From: the human T2T-CHM13v2.0 reference genome, Homo sapiens
Reading direction: 5' to 3' (one strand)
Length of the DNA: 64,000 nucleotides
NCBI RefSeq assembly: GCF_009914755.1
Contig: NC_060927.1
Notes under the pieces: model-generated
Databases searched by the model: none
The model's input: the letters and a program-made list of their open reading frames with translations, nothing else
What the model was told of the DNA's origin: nothing
Program-made: the position numbers and the translations under genes
Shown here: one piece after another, positions 9,740 to 57,779 of the stretch
Layout of the letters: the number at the start of each line of letters is the position of its first letter
Numbering within the stretch: the stretch's first letter is position 1

Positions 9740-12700
9740 TTTTTTTTTTTAATTATACTTTATGTTCTAGGGTACATATGCACAACGTGCAGGTTTGTTA
9801 CATATGTATACATGTGCCGTGTTGGTTTGCTGCACCCATTAACTCGTCATTTACATTAGGTATTTCTCCTAATGCTATCCCTCCCCAATTTCCCCACTCC
9901 ACGACCGGCCCCAGTGTGTGATGTTCCCTGCCCTGTGTCCAAGTGTTCTCATTGTTGAATTCCCATCTATGAGTGAGAACATGCGGTGTTTGGTTTTCTG
10001 TCCTTGTGATAGTTTGCTGAGAATGATGGTTTCCAGCTTCATCCATGTCCCTACAAAGGACATGAACTCATCTTTTTATGGCTGCAAAGTATTCCATGGT
10101 GTATATGTGCCACATTTTCTTAATCCAGTCTATCATTGTTGGACATTTGGGTTGGTTCCAAGTCTTTGCTATTGTGAATAGTGCCACAATAAACATATGT
10201 GTGCATGTGTCTTTACAGTAACATGATTTATAATCCTTTGGGTATATACCTAGTAATGGGATGGCTGGGTCAAATGGTATTTCTAGTTCTAGATCCTTGA
10301 GGAATCACCACACTGTCTTCCAAAATAGTTGAACTAGTTTACACTCCCATCAACAGTGTAAAAGCTTTCCTATTTCTCCACATCCTCTCCAGCACCTGTT
10401 GTTTCCTGACTTTTTAATGATTGCCATTGTAACTGGTGTGAGATGGTATCTCACTGTGGTTTTGATTAGCATTTCTCTGATGACCAGTGATGATGAGCAT
10501 TTTTTCATGTGTCTGTTGGCTGCATAAATGTCTTTTTTTGAAAAGTGTTCACGTCCTTTGCCTACTTTTTCATGAGGTTGATTTTTTCTTGTAAATTTGT
10601 TTAAGTTCTTTGTAGATTCCAGATATTACCCTTTGTCAGATGGGCAGATTGCAAAAATTTTCTCCCATTCTGTAGGTCACCTGTTCACTCTGATGGTAGT
10701 TTCTTTTGCTGTGCAGAAGCTCTTTAGTTTAATTAGATCCCATTTGTCAATTTTGGTTTTTGTTACCATTGCTTTTGGTGTTTTAGTCATGAAGGCCTTG
10801 CCCATGCCTATATCCTGAATGATATTGCCTATGTTTTCTTCTAGGGTTTTTATGGTTTTATGTCTAAAACTTAAGTCTTTAATCCATATTGAATTAATTT
10901 TGTATAAGGTATAAAGAAGGGATCCAGTTTCAGCTTTCTATGTATTGCTAGCCAGTTTTCCAAGCACCATTTATTAAATAGGGAATCCTTTCCCCATTGC
11001 TTGTTTTTGTCAGGTTTGTCAAACACCAGATGGTTGTAGATGTGTGCTGTTATTTCTGAGGCCTCTGTTCTGTTCCATTGGTCTATATCTCTGTTTTGGT
11101 ACTAGTACCATGCTGTTTTGGCTACTGTAGCCTTGTAGTACAGTAGTACAGCCTGTAGTACGTCAGGTAGCATGATGCCTCCAGCTTTGTTCTTTTTGCT
11201 TAGTATTGTCTTGGCAATGTGGGCTCTTTTCAGTTCCATATGAACTTTAAAGTAGTTTTTCCCAAGAAAGTCACTGGTAGCTTGATGGGGATGGCATTGA
11301 ATCTATCAATTACTTTGGGCAGTATGGCCACTTTCATGATATTGATTCTTCCTATCCATGAGCATGGAATGTTCTTTCATTTGTTTCTGTCCTCTTTTAT
11401 TTTGTTGAGCAGTGGTTTGTAGTTCTCCTTGAAGAAGTCCTTCACATCCCCTGTAAGTTGTATTCCTAGGTATTTCATTCTTTTTGAAGCAATTGTGAAT
11501 GGGGTTTCACTCATGATTTGGGTCTCTGTCTATTATTGGTGTATAGGAATGCTTGTAATTTTTTCACATTGATTTTTGTACCCTGAGACTTTGCTGAAGT
11601 TGCTTTCAGCTTAAGGAGATCTTGGGCTGAGTTGATGGAGTTTTCTAAATATACCATCATGCCATCTGTAAACAGGGACAATTTGATTTCCTCTTTTCCT
11701 AATTGAATACCCTTTATTTCTTTCTCTTGCCTGATTGCACTTGCCAGAACTTCTAACACTATGTTGAACAGGAGTGGTGAGAGAGGGCATCCCTATCTTG
11801 TGCCAGTTTTCAAAGGGAATGCTTCCAGTTTTTGCCCATTCAGTATGATATTGGCTGTGGGTCTGTCATAAATGGCTCTTATTATTTTGAGATACATTCC
11901 ATCAATACCTAGTTTATTGAGAGTTTTTAGCATGAAGATTGTTGAATTTTGTCAAAGGCCTTTTCTGCATCTATTGAAATAATCACATTATTTTTGTCAT
12001 TGGGTCTGTTTATGTGATGCATTACATTTATTGATTTATGCATGTTGAACCAGCCTTGTATTCCAGGGATGAAGCTGACTTGATTGTGGTGGATAAGCTT
12101 TTTGATGTGCTGCTGCATTTGGTTTGCCAGTATTTTATTGAGGATTTTTGCATTGATGTTCATCAGGGATATTGGTCTGAAATTCTCTTTTTTGTTGTTG
12201 TGTCTCTGCCAGGCTTTGGTGTCAGGATGATGCTGGCCTCATAAAATGAGTTAGGGAGGATTCCCTCTTTTTCTATTGATTGCAATAGTTTCAGAAGGAA
12301 TGGTACCAGCTCCTCTTTATACCTCTGGTAGAATTCGGCTGTGAATCCATCTGGTCCTGGACTTTTTTTGGTTGGTAGGATATTAATTATTGCTTCAATT
12401 TCAGAGCCTGTTATTGGTCTATTTAGTGATTCAACTTCTTCCTGGTTTAGTCTTGGGTGGGTGTATGTGTCCAGGAATTTATCCATTTCTTCTAGGTTTT
12501 CTAGTTTATTTATGTACAGGTGTTTATAGTATTCTCTGATGGTAGTTTGTATTTCTCTGGGATCAGTGGTGATATCCCCTTTATCATTTTTTATTGCATC
12601 TATTTGATTCTTCTCTCTTTTCTTCTTTATTAATCTTGCTAGCAGTCTATCAATTTTGTTGATCTTTTCAAAAACCAGTTCCTGGATTCATTGATTTTTT

Positions 12701-54873: not shown

Positions 54874-57779
54874 GAAGAAGAGAATTTCAGACCAATAGCC
54901 CTGATGAACATCGATGCAAAAATCCTCAAAATACTGGCAAACTAAATGCAGCAGCACATCAAAAAGCATATCCACCAAGATCCAGTCAGCTTCATCCCTG
55001 GAATGCAAGACTGGTTCAACATATGCAAATCAATAAACATAATCTATCACATAAACAGAACCAACGACAAAAACCACATGATTATCTCAGTAGATGCAGA
55101 AAAGGCCTTTGACAAAATTCAGCAGCCTTTCATGCTAAAAACTCTCAATAACTATGTATTGATGGAATGTATCTCAAAATAATAAGAGCTATTTATGACA
55201 AACCCACAGCCAATATCATACTGAATGGTCAAAAACTGGAAGCATTCCCTTTGAAAACTGGCACAAGACAGGGATGTCCTCTCTCACCAGTCCTATTCAA
55301 CACAGTGTTGGAAGTTCTGGACAGGGCAATCAGGCAAGAGAAAGAAATAAAGGGTATTCAATTATGAAAAGAGGAAGTCAAATTGTCCCTGTTTGCAGAT
55401 GGCATGATTGTATATTTAGAAAACTCCATCAACTCAGCCCAAGATCTCTTTAAGCTGATAAGCAACTTCAGCAAAGTCTCAGGATACAAAATCAATGTGC
55501 AAAAATCACAAGCATTCCTATAGACCAATAATAGACAGAGACCCAAATCATTAGTGAACCCCCATTCACAACTGCTTCAAAGAGAATAAAATACCAAGGG
55601 ATGTGAAGGACCTCTTCAAGAAGAACTACAAACCACTGCTTAACGAAATGAGAGAGGACAAAAACAAATGGAAGAACATTCCATGCTCATGGATAGGAAG
55701 AATCAATATCATGAAAATGGCCATACTGCCCAAGGTAATTTATAGATTCAATGCCATCCCCATCAAGCTACCAATGACTTTCTTCACAAAATTGGAAAAA
55801 AACTACTTTAGAGTTCATATGGAACCAAAAAAGAGCCCACATTGCCAAGAAAATCCTAAGCCAAAATAACAAAGATAGAGGCATCATGCTACCTGACTTC
55901 AAACTATACTACAAGGATACAGTAACCAAAACAGCATGGCACTGGTACCAAAACAGAGATATAGACCAACGGAACAGAACAGAGTCCTCAGAAATAACGC
56001 CACACATCTGCAACCATCTGATCTTTGACAAACCTGACAAAAACAAGAAATGGGGAAAGGATTCCCTATTTAATAAATGGTGCTGGGAAAACTGGCTAGC
56101 CATACGTAGAAAGCTGAAACTGGATCCCTTCCTTACAGAAAAATTAATTCAAGATGGATTAAAGACCTAAATGGAAGACTTAAAACCATAAAAGCCTAGA
56201 AGAAAACCTAGGCAATACCATTCAGGCCATAGGCATGGGCAAGGACTTCATGACTAAAACACCAAAAGCAAGAGCAGCAAAAGCCAGAATGGACAAATGG
56301 GATCTAATTAAACTAAAGAGCTTCTGTACAGCAAAAGAAACTACCATCAGAGTGAACAGGCCACCTACAGAATGGGAGAAAATTTTTGCAATCTACCCAT
56401 CTGACAAAGGGCTAATATCTAGAATCTACAAAGAAAAACAAATTTACAAGACAAAAAACCAAACAACCCCATCAAAACGTGTGCAAAAGATATGAACAGA
56501 CCCTTCTCAAAAGAAGACATTTATGCAGCCAACAGACACATGAAAGAATGCTCATCATCACTGGTCATCAGAGAAATGCAAATCAAAACCACAATGTGAT
56601 ACCATCTCATGCCAGTTAGCATGGCGATCATTAAAAAGTCAGGAAACAACGGGTGCTGGAGAGGATATGGAGAAATATGAGCACTTTTACACTGTTGGTG
56701 TGAGTGTAAATTAGTTCCACCATTGTGGAAGACAGTGTGGCGATTCCTCAAGGATGTAGAACTAGAAATACCATTTGATGCCGTGATCCCATTACTGGAT
56801 ATATACCCAAAGGATTATAAATCATGCTACTATAAAGACACATGTATGTTTACTGCGGCACTATTCACAATAGCAAAGACTTGGAACCAACCCAAATGTC
56901 CATCAATGATAGACTGGATTAAGAAAATATGGTACATATACACCATGGAATACCATCCAGCCATAAAAAAGGATGAGTTCATGTCCTTTGTAGGGATGTG
57001 GATGAAGCTGGAAACCATCATTCTGAGCAAACCAGACACCGCATGTTCTCACTCATAGGTAGGAGTTGAACAATGGGAACACTTGGACATGGAGCGGAGA
57101 ATATCGCACACCAGTGCCTGTCAGGGGCTGGAGGGCTGGGGGAGGGATAGCACTGGGAGAAATGCCTAATGTAAATGACGAGATGATGGGTGCAGTGAAC
57201 CAGCATGGCACATGTATACCTATGCGACAAGACAGCACGTTGTGCACATGTACCCTAGAACTTAAAGTATAATAAAAAATTAAAGAAAAAAATAAAAATT
57301 ATAAAGTTTATACTGAGACAAGTAAATTTTTAGTGCATAATTTGACTTAACATTTTATACTTGTATTGCATTTCTCTTGCATTGGAAATCATGGTTTTTA
57401 ATTATAATAACATAATTGTTTATTTACTTTGTAGCTTAAATATAGCAGCTTCTAGATAGCAAAACCAACATTATTCCTAAAATTAAATTTACCTCGTGTT
57501 GTTTAAATAATTGTGCAGTTATTTTTCTCTTTAGAATATTTCTCACCAAGGATGCAATCAGTAATACATCAAAATCATTTGAACTAGCTCTTTATGGATA
57601 TATTGTATATACTTGGATTCATTTGCTCATATATTCTAGTTTGTTTTTAAGTTTAGAGACCTTAAAAATATACTATTAATTTGTGATATAGTTGATTTAA
57701 AGTTATTCAATATAAGTTTTTTCTGTTTATTATACAGTTAGCTCTAATTGCTTATATTTTCTAAATCAACATTGGATAT

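What the first reader, a model, noticed from the sequence alone, without database searches (positions are those of the whole stretch)
11500..55560. Inverted L1 copies A and C, ~43 kb apart, share a patch of inactivating non-consensus mutations (gene-conversion tract)
Seen in sequence: A (minus, ~11500-12390) and C (plus, ~54625-55560) share six features that B lacks. (1) The RT catalytic codons GAT GAC read GAT GGC, so FADD becomes DG (A 11661-11666, C 55398-55403; B keeps LFADDM). (2) ccatcAActcag. (3) cccaaGatctc. (4) The same 4-bp frameshift plus substitution, atagacagagacccaaatc (A ~11516-11534, C 55531-55549; B is undeleted). (5) ccctggAat (A ~12062, C ~55002). (6) aataTccta, giving IINIL (A ~12380, C ~54632; B is rearranged at this site). 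Outside this patch, in the EN-side ORF2 translations, I see no shared derived residues. Each element has its own TSD (A's is degenerate), so they look like separate insertions. Established: L1 proteins act mainly in cis, so an RT-dead, frameshifted source is an unlikely parent of both. Inference: an old post-insertion non-allelic gene conversion between inverted L1s. The tracts have since diverged again.
Basis: partly seen in the sequence, partly recalled or inferred. Interest (0 to 1): 0.85.

Follow-up and report, generated by a model that had tools for sequence, protein, structure and literature searches.

The report
Old gene conversion between two L1s
Two separately inserted, long-dead L1 retrotransposon copies 43 kb apart in opposite orientation share a cluster of rare mutations in one 0.9-kb stretch, most likely because one copy overwrote part of the other long ago, which is a known and ordinary process.

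Summary
All six shared features are at the stated coordinates. One is not private. The "4-bp frameshift" form occurs in 733 exact copies genome-wide against 4928 undeleted.

I compared A and C with 55 unlinked L1 copies. They share 8 rare substitutions in A 11504-12380, 0 in 675 bp upstream and 2 in 1387 bp downstream, which is chance level. Only 3 to 13 of 1336 pairs score as high, A-C included. In the patch each is the other's nearest relative (rank 1 of 49) and they are sisters in the tree (100/95). Outside it they are not.

No other copy in the genome combines these variants. Each has its own target-site duplication and a different 5' end.

Best reading is an old non-crossover gene conversion (about 0.6). 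It is unproven. The flanks do not reject A+C as sisters (AU p 0.396), the patch limits are post hoc, and no primate orthologues were available. Gene conversion between L1s, including inverted L1PA7 pairs, is already in print (PMC5829575). Interest is low.

The parts
9741..13650 (-). L1 copy A. It is 5'-truncated inside the endonuclease part of ORF2 and ends in a poly-A at about 9741-9750.
   Evidence: It aligns to C over A 13649..9746 at 86.6%. The flank beyond 13650 is unique sequence. The poly-A and 3' flank were read.
51101..57293 (+). L1 copy C, which is full length or nearly so: a 5'UTR-like start, ORF1, a broken ORF2 and an A-rich tail.
   Evidence: Pfam finds the two L1 ORF1 domains, Transposase_22 and Tnp_22_dsRBD, at 52707-53090. 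It also finds an RVT_1 fragment at 54946-55179 (28 bits, below the 29.6 cut-off). Sequence was read. That the start near 51101 is a 5'UTR is my reading from recall and was not tested.
11504..12380 (-). The patch in A. It is 877 bp of ORF2 (reverse-transcriptase region) holding the 8 rare states shared with C, at 12380, 12116, 12062, 11662, 11632, 11621, 11522 and 11504.
   Evidence: A-C identity here is 806 of 877 (0.919), rank 1 of 49 for both A and C.
54632..55560 (+). The patch in C, the counterpart of A 12380-11504. It includes a private (CA)n(A)n insertion at about 54816-54875.
   Evidence: The end points were read.
11661..11666 (-). The reverse-transcriptase active-site codons in A, which read GAT GGC (D G) instead of D D.
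   Evidence: B and 53 of 55 panel copies have A at 11662.
55398..55403 (+). The same two codons in C, which read GAT GGC.
11516..11534 (-). The 4-bp-shorter ORF2 site in A (frame-breaking) with G>C at 11522.
   Evidence: The shorter form is common in the genome. The G>C companion is seen in A, C and at least 8 other copies among the 100 rows listed.
55531..55549 (+). The same 4-bp-shorter site in C.
13651..13657 (-). The 5' copy of A's target-site duplication (7 bp exact, 8 of 10 if extended).
   Evidence: Read. It matches 9731-9737 just beyond the poly-A.
9731..9737 (-). The 3' copy of A's target-site duplication.
51079..51094 (+). The candidate 5' copy of C's target-site duplication (14 of 16 match). 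It is A/T-rich, so it is less certain.
   Evidence: One search compared.
57294..57309 (+). The candidate 3' copy of C's target-site duplication.

Best explanation
A and C are two independent insertions of the same L1 subfamily. A is 5'-truncated and C is full length. They lie 43 kb apart in opposite orientation.

Some time after both had inserted, and after the donor had picked up about 0.9% private neutral mutations, a break in one copy was repaired from the other without crossover. That copied a tract of up to about 0.9 kb, or two to three shorter tracts. The donor's private changes were carried across, including the D>G change in the reverse-transcriptase active site. Both copies then diverged by a further 6% or so each.

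- Shown: the rare shared states, their confinement to the patch, their uniqueness in the genome, and the separate origin of the two elements.
- Inferred: the repair mechanism, its timing and its direction. There is a weak hint that A was the donor. C departs from the panel majority at 6.7% of sites in the patch against 8.7% in its flanks. A departs at 6.2% against 6.7% (counts).
For: **Rare shared states**
- A and C share 8 rare substitutions (state present in at most 4 of 55 other copies) in 877 bp. They share 0 in 675 bp upstream and 2 in 1387 bp downstream.
- In the patch, A shares 0-4 such states with each of 48 panel copies (mean 0.85). C shares 0-3 (mean 0.83). A and C share 8.

**All-pair null** (substitutions only, 1336 pairs; every count includes A-C itself)

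| Rarity threshold | Statistic | A-C value | Pairs at or above |
|---|---|---|---|
| at most 1 other copy | total | 7 | 4 |
| at most 1 other copy | best 900-bp window | 6 | 3 |
| at most 4 other copies | best 900-bp window | 8 | 8 |
| at most 4 other copies | best 160-bp window | 5 | 5 |
| at most 4 other copies | total | 10 | 13 |

**Identity and trees**
- A-C identity is 0.919 in the patch, rank 1 of 49 for both. It is 0.896 and 0.881 in the flanks, ranks 25 of 40 and 27 of 50 for A.
- With IQ-TREE, A+C are sisters at 100/95 in the patch (50 tips). They are not sisters in the flanks (40 tips, 2062 columns). FastTree agrees.

**Uniqueness in the genome**
- The 25-nt word holding two of the variants has 79 matches at up to 2 mismatches. 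Only A and C carry both variants.
- The 53-nt word holding three variants has 20 matches at up to 3 mismatches. Only A and C carry two or more.
- The places carrying the 12062 state (30) and the 12380 state (11) overlap only at A and C.

**Separate origin**
- The two elements have different 5' ends, non-homologous flanks and their own target-site duplications. This also argues against a crossover or inversion.

**Literature**
- Gene conversion between L1PA3 copies, and at an inversion flanked by oppositely oriented L1PA7 copies, is reported in PMC5829575 (passages).
- Elevated conversion between nearby Alus is summarised in PMC6598467 (passages).
- A conversion rate about ten times the point mutation rate, with a mean tract of 250 bp, is estimated for human gene duplicates in bioRxiv 10.1101/135152 (abstract).
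Against: - The flanks do not reject A+C as sisters. AU p is 0.396, a cost of 10.8 log-likelihood units. The quick search even preferred the constrained tree.
- The patch limits were set by the shared sites themselves. Scan simulations give only p 0.027 (8 of 10 sites within 877 bp) and p 0.049 (6 of 7).
- True lineage-diagnostic sites can cluster as well. 9 of the 10 rare states shared by L010 and L057 lie in 12004-12902.
- Each variant also occurs singly in other copies, so parallel mutation is real. The 12062 state is in 30 of 747 exact words. D>G alone is in 5 of the 18 other matches, and in L059.
- Over the full aligned length, A is closer to 27 of the 55 panel copies than to C.
- 877 bp is long against a 250-bp mean tract.
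- The panel was chosen by two 25-nt words, not at random.
- Genome pattern counts are stated by the tool to be lower bounds.
- No orthologous primate sequence was available.
Confidence: 0.6

Rival explanations
1. A and C are siblings from one minor source, or parent and daughter. The source element already carried the eight variants. The clustering of those variants is how that lineage happened to differ.
For: - The flanks do not reject A+C as sisters (AU p 0.396).
- Lineage-diagnostic sites cluster in a real sub-lineage of the panel (L010, L013, L057).
- A and C belong to the same subfamily along their whole length. They agree at 134 of 175 sites that are polymorphic in the panel.
Against: - No third member was found. 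By my own estimate, the search would catch about three in four such copies.
- Two sole members of a lineage landing within 43 kb of each other in a 3.1-Gb genome is about a 3 in 100,000 coincidence (my arithmetic).
- The source would have had an inactive reverse transcriptase.
- Rare shared states outside the patch are at chance level: 2 against a mean of 1.2-1.8 downstream, and 0 upstream.
- C departs from the panel majority more than A does in the flanks, 179 against 137 of 2056 sites. That does not fit same-time siblings. If C were the parent, it would predict dozens of inherited private sites in the flanks.
Confidence: 0.15
2. The pattern is chance. A and C are two unrelated insertions of one subfamily that hit the same rare states by parallel mutation. 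The reader noticed them because many L1 pairs are being scanned.
For: - Every one of the states tested genome-wide recurs alone in other copies.
- The 12062 state reaches 4% (30 of 747).
- Random pairs share on average 0.85 rare states in the patch.
- A first pass that also counted gap columns gave looser ranks, up to 65 of 1338 pairs for one statistic.
Against: - A-C has 6 to 8 against a mean of 0.4 to 0.85. The Poisson tail is about 3 in a million before allowing for the choice of window.
- A-C ranks 1 of 1225 in the patch at the stricter rarity threshold.
- Of the two pairs that matched or beat A-C on the strict 900-bp count, one is a real sub-lineage and the other scored mainly from an alignment artefact.
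- Four of the eight changes are transversions.
Confidence: 0.12
3. The mosaic has another origin. Either both copies were converted from a third local L1 that is now lost or unrecognised, or the sources themselves were mosaics made by template switching or recombination.
For: Nothing supports this directly. It is not excluded, because only copies in this one genome were compared.
Against: - B and the older L1 fragments in the window lack the states, apart from 12116 in B.
- No carrier of the combination exists elsewhere in the genome.
- A mosaic source does not explain the proximity of A and C.
Confidence: 0.06
4. A and C are copies from an inverted segmental duplication of one L1.
For: They lie in opposite orientation on one chromosome arm and share variants.
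Against: - Homology stops exactly at the L1 ends. A is truncated at 13649-13650 next to unique sequence, while C runs on through ORF1.
- Each has its own target-site duplication.
- A-C identity of 0.886 is lower than A's identity to 27 of 55 unlinked copies.
Confidence: 0.01

Closest known systems
Non-allelic (interlocus) gene conversion between dispersed L1 copies. [quoted passage not shown]
   Same: Two L1 copies on one chromosome, here in inverted orientation. A short tract of one is replaced by the other's sequence.
   Different: Those cases are recent polymorphisms seen directly in long reads. This one is tens of millions of years old and is inferred only from 8 shared rare substitutions. 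Here both target-site duplications are intact, so no inversion accompanied it.
Homogenisation of neighbouring Alu elements by non-allelic gene conversion. This is Aleshin and Zhi 2010, as summarised in PMC6598467 (passages read; the original paper was not read).
   Same: Dependence on proximity, mosaic patterns of variants, and dead repeats as substrates.
   Different: That work concerns Alus, with elevated rates mainly within 10 kb. Here the substrates are 3.9-kb L1 homologies 43 kb apart.
Non-allelic gene conversion between human gene duplicates (Harpak et al., bioRxiv 10.1101/135152, abstract read).
   Same: A short tract is copied between paralogues that were nearly identical at the time. 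The process stops as the copies diverge.
   Different: The mean tract there is 250 bp. The patch here spans up to 877 bp and may be more than one tract. The substrates here are neutral repeats, not genes.
L1 sub-subfamily structure, that is, shared diagnostic sites inherited from a common source element.
   Same: Shared non-consensus states between copies. A and C do share subfamily alleles along their whole length.
   Different: The eight rare states have no other carriers in the genome, are confined to one stretch, and include a change that inactivates the reverse transcriptase.

Membership tests
LINE-1 (L1) retrotransposon copies | ORF1 and ORF2 homology | tested here: met
   In C, Pfam finds Transposase_22 (82 bits) and Tnp_22_dsRBD (106 bits). 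It also finds an RVT_1 fragment at 28 bits, under the 29.6 cut-off. A aligns to C over 3.9 kb at 86.6%. Thousands of genome copies share the tested words.
LINE-1 (L1) retrotransposon copies | Poly-A tail, target-site duplication and 5' truncation, as expected from target-primed reverse transcription | tested here: met
   A has a poly-A at about 9741-9750 and a 7-bp exact duplication at 9731-9737 and 13651-13657. It is truncated in the endonuclease region. C has an A-rich tail and a 14-of-16 candidate duplication, which is A/T-rich and so weaker.
   No Dfam or Repbase library was available. I can say only that A and C share alleles at 134 of 175 sites polymorphic in the panel. They depart from the panel majority at about 6.5% and 8.1% of sites (counts).
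Non-allelic gene conversion tract | Donor and acceptor are paralogues of independent origin | tested here: met
   They have different 5' ends, non-homologous flanks and separate target-site duplications.
Non-allelic gene conversion tract | A bounded tract of shared derived states, with flanks at background level | tested here: met
   8 rare shared states lie in 877 bp, against 0 upstream and 2 downstream. Scan p is 0.027 to 0.049. The limits are post hoc.
Non-allelic gene conversion tract | The tract and the flanks give conflicting trees | tested here: inconclusive
   In the patch A+C are sisters at 100/95. In the flanks they are not sisters, but forcing them together is not rejected (AU p 0.396).
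Non-allelic gene conversion tract | The haplotype is absent from unlinked copies, so it is not a source lineage | tested here: met
   Only A and C combine the variants. Sensitivity is limited: the matches allow only 0 to 3 mismatches, and the tool's counts are lower bounds.
Non-allelic gene conversion tract | The pre-conversion state is seen in an outgroup or orthologue | not testable with these tools
   No other primate genome is held.

The most novel reading that the evidence does not exclude
Same-age L1 copies tens of kilobases apart, in either orientation, may undergo local concerted evolution often enough to be detected one pair at a time with a shared-rare-variant statistic. If so, L1 subfamily ages and source-gene trees are locally biased.

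The frame-breaking 4-bp-shorter ORF2 form occurs at about 13% of exact-site copies and on several subfamily backgrounds. It may owe part of its spread to such copying, or to mobilisation of ORF2-dead elements in trans, rather than only to recurrent slippage.
Probability: 0.2. Interest if true: 0.4.

Novelty: new member of a known kind. Interest (0 to 1): 0.2.

Why it matters
If true, this is one more dated example that dead L1 copies keep exchanging sequence with neighbours after insertion. Such exchange can mislead subfamily assignment and age estimates for individual copies. It also shows that homologous repair was active between inverted repeats that could have inverted the 43-kb segment between them.

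No gene is involved and nothing is functional. The process itself is well documented.

There are two practical lessons for the scan:
- Shared "inactivating" changes in old L1 copies must be checked against genome-wide frequencies. One of the six markers here is carried by hundreds of copies.
- A simple count of rare shared variants against a null of unlinked pairs separates real local kinship from subfamily structure.

Tried and rejected
- **First null, superseded.** The first all-pair null counted gap columns. Runs of shared gaps, and mis-registered alignments around A's private 12-bp insertion, inflated other pairs. An example is L016-L030, whose cluster at 11154-11192 is an artefact. I replaced it with a substitution-only count on 2909 columns.
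- **Full alignment, abandoned.** A full MAFFT alignment of 59 sequences ran to 8599 columns because of non-homologous flanks. I used projection on A by blastn instead.
- **Whole-genome DNA search with A's patch.** It scored only 40 of 12417 candidates. All 39 other hits were at 90-92% and C was not among those scored. It therefore shows only that the tract is not a recent copy.
- **Further loci.** The panel stayed at 55 copies, chosen by two 25-nt words. This selection makes three of the A/C states look less rare in the panel, which is conservative.
- **Polymorphic sites.** Agreement of A and C at sites polymorphic in the panel is not significantly better in the patch. Discordant sites number 10 of 55 in the patch, against 12 of 41 and 19 of 79 in the flanks. 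Many of these are CpG sites.
- **150-bp windows.** A-C identity in 150-bp windows shows no sharp block. It runs 0.85-0.95 inside the patch and 0.81-0.94 outside.
- **Quick tree.** The quick tree search was unreliable. The constrained tree scored 15.9 log-likelihood units higher, so I reran it with the careful search.
- **Segmental duplication.** Rejected on the end points of the homology.
- **Crossover or inversion through the elements.** Rejected on the intact target-site duplications.
- **Literature searches.** I found no paper on this locus. I did not find or read the older L1 conversion papers: Burton et al. 1991 was seen only in a reference list.

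
Full report
**What is there**

The window holds three large L1 copies that are similar to each other.
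- **A** runs on the minus strand from 13649/13650 to a poly-A at about 9741-9750.
- **C** runs on the plus strand. It aligns to A from 53384 to 57279 (86.6% over 3992 alignment columns). It continues upstream through ORF1, where Pfam finds Transposase_22 and Tnp_22_dsRBD at 52707-53090. By my reading, which was not tested, it reaches a 5'UTR-like start near 51101.
- **B** (about 17825-20834, minus strand) carries an inserted Alu-like block.

A is 5'-truncated next to unique sequence. The homology between A and C stops at the L1 ends.

A has a 7-bp exact target-site duplication at 13651-13657 and 9731-9737 (8 of 10 if extended). C has a 14-of-16, A/T-rich candidate at 51079-51094 and 57294-57309.

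They are therefore separate insertions. Because each element's two flanks match each other, no crossover or inversion passed through them.

**The observation**

- In frame, C reads [24 protein letters not shown]... and A reads [24 protein letters not shown]....
- B keeps the usual two aspartate codons and the longer form of the 4-bp site.

**How private are the shared features?**

The window's own genome can be searched by pattern.

*The 4-bp-shorter word*
- The exact 25-nt word with the 4-bp-shorter site plus G>C occurs 5 times: in A, in C and in three unlinked copies.
- Two of those copies span the other sites and lack A and C's states there. The third is truncated just 5' of the site.
- With up to 2 mismatches the word has 1029 matches. 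The commonest is the same shorter site without the G>C.
- Exact counts are 733 for the shorter form and 4928 for the longer form.
- Among the first 100 rows of each list, by my count, the shorter form sits on both of the neighbouring C/T variants: 83 C and 17 T, against 92 and 8 for the longer form.
- Among 28 copies fetched without regard to this site, 4 carry the same shorter form, on at least three different sequence backgrounds.
- The "same 4-bp frameshift" is therefore a common state and says nothing about a private A-C history.

*The other features*
- The 25-nt word with the variants at 11632 and 11621 has 79 matches at up to 2 mismatches.
  - Only A and C are exact, and none has 1 mismatch.
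  - By my count, the remaining 77 are 58 of the background form, 14 with the first variant only, 3 with the second only, and 2 others.
- The 53-nt word that adds the D>G codon has 20 matches at up to 3 mismatches.
  - Apart from A and C there are 10 with none of the three variants, 5 with D>G only, 2 with the first variant only and 1 with the second only.
- The 12062 state is in 30 of 747 exact words, or 4%.
- The 12380 state is in 11 exact words.
- The lists of places (first 100 rows), 16, 41 and 42 have no element in common except A and C.
- Each variant therefore recurs alone, at roughly the per-cent level, but the combination is unique.

**Is it more than chance?**

I projected 55 unlinked copies (L001, L004, L005, L008-L060, 3 kb each), plus B and C, onto A's coordinates by blastn.

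I counted only substitutions, on the 2909 columns that had at least 30 sequences and few gaps (window 13055-10117). A state was called rare if it occurred in at most 1, 2 or 4 other sequences.

- A and C share 7, 8 and 10 such states under the three thresholds.
- At the loosest threshold the sites are 12380, 12116, 12062, 11662, 11632, 11621, 11522, 11504, 10942 and 10621.
- Among 1336 pairs, the number scoring at least as high as A-C (itself included) is:
  - 4 for the total and 3 for the best 900-bp window, at the strict threshold;
  - 13, 8 and 5 for the total, the best 900-bp window and the best 160-bp window, at the loose threshold.
- At the strict threshold, only two pairs matched or beat A-C on the best 900-bp window.
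  - L010-L057 belongs to a real sub-lineage that also includes L013.
  - L016-L030 scores mainly from an alignment artefact.
- Within 11504-12380 at the loose threshold, A shares 0-4 (mean 0.85) and C shares 0-3 (mean 0.83) rare states with each of 48 panel copies. A and C share 8.
- Upstream they share 0. Downstream they share 1-2, equal to the panel mean.

**Is it a patch?**

| Measure | Upstream flank (12381-13055) | Patch (11504-12380) | Downstream flank (10117-11503) |
|---|---|---|---|
| A-C identity | 0.896 | 0.919 | 0.881 |
| Rank among A's comparisons | 25 of 40 | 1 of 49 | 27 of 50 |
| Rank among C's comparisons | 12 of 40 | 1 of 49 | 18 of 50 |

- Careful IQ-TREE runs make A and C sisters in the patch (100/95, 50 tips). 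On the 2062 flank columns (40 tips) they are not sisters: A joins L014 and C joins a 12-tip group. FastTree agrees.
- Simulated uniform scatter gives p 0.027 for 8 of 10 sites within 877 bp, and p 0.049 for 6 of 7.

Four results count against a clean mosaic.
- The flanks do not reject A+C as sisters (AU p 0.396).
- The patch limits are post hoc.
- 150-bp windows show no sharp block.
- Diagnostic sites of a genuine sub-lineage also cluster: 9 of 10 lie within 900 bp.

**Subfamily**

A and C carry the same allele at 134 of 175 sites that are polymorphic in the panel, along the whole element. They are therefore the same subfamily throughout. I could not name it without a repeat library.

Over the full aligned length A is closer to 27 of the 55 panel copies than to C (0.886). 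A's patch finds 39 other copies at 90-92% among the 40 that were scored. This is no recent copy.

**Explanation**

An old non-crossover gene conversion between A and C fits all of these findings:
- separate insertions;
- a unique combination of otherwise sporadic variants;
- confinement to about 0.9 kb;
- physical proximity;
- inclusion of a change that kills the reverse transcriptase, which a source element could hardly have carried.

Eight sites in 877 bp means the donor had diverged by about 0.9% when it was copied. Both copies then added about 6%.

C departs from the panel majority less in the patch (59 of 877) than in its flanks (179 of 2056). A does not show this (54 of 877 against 137 of 2056). 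That is a weak hint that A was the donor.

The alternatives are:
- a two-member source lineage (about 0.15);
- pure parallel mutation (about 0.12);
- a third donor or mosaic sources (about 0.06);
- segmental duplication (excluded by the end points).

**Comparison with what is known**

- Conversion between L1 copies, including at an inversion flanked by oppositely oriented L1PA7 elements, has been seen directly in long reads (PMC5829575, passages).
- Proximity-dependent homogenisation of Alus is summarised in PMC6598467 (passages).
- High conversion rates between young human duplicates are estimated in bioRxiv 10.1101/135152 (abstract).

The present case would be one more, older instance of a known process.

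**Verdict**

- One of its six supports, the frameshift, is invalid as a private marker.
- Interest is low (0.2).

Noticed in passing
window 11516-11534 and 55531-55549; genome-wide: A frame-breaking 4-bp-shorter form of one ORF2 site occurs in 733 exact copies against 4928 of the longer form. The longer form holds two near-tandem 4-bp units, and the shorter form lacks one unit. The shorter form sits on at least three different subfamily backgrounds. That points to a recurrent slippage hot spot, either in the genome or during reverse transcription, or to propagation of ORF2-broken elements. I did not work out which.
   Followed up: partly
genome places listed; L059: The change of the second active-site aspartate codon of the L1 reverse transcriptase to glycine recurs on its own. 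It is in 5 of the 18 other near-exact matches, and in panel copy L059. It is therefore a sporadic parallel change, not a marker of one lineage.
   Followed up: partly
window 54816-54875: C carries a private (CA)n followed by an (A)n run of about 60 bp inside ORF2. It sits where other copies have a short A-rich stretch. This is a microsatellite born inside a dead L1.
   Followed up: no
window 11149-11163: A has a private insertion of about 12 bp that looks like a local duplication of the neighbouring bases. It mis-registers ungapped alignments and produced false clusters of shared variants in other pairs.
   Followed up: yes
window about 20110-20410 (inside B, 17825-20834): B is interrupted by an Alu-like insertion, seen as a block of about 300 bp present only in B in the alignment.
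   Followed up: no
window 3379-6750 and 16190-17797: There are older L1 fragments at 67-71% identity to C. There are further L1 3' pieces at 58368-58594 and 59617-60015, at 78-82%.
   Followed up: no
G000 C4:145960352 and C4:145969662: Two different L1 copies 9.3 kb apart on chromosome 4, on opposite strands, each carry one of the rare A/C variants: D>G in one, and the 11632 state in the other. This is probably coincidence. I did not examine it.
   Followed up: no
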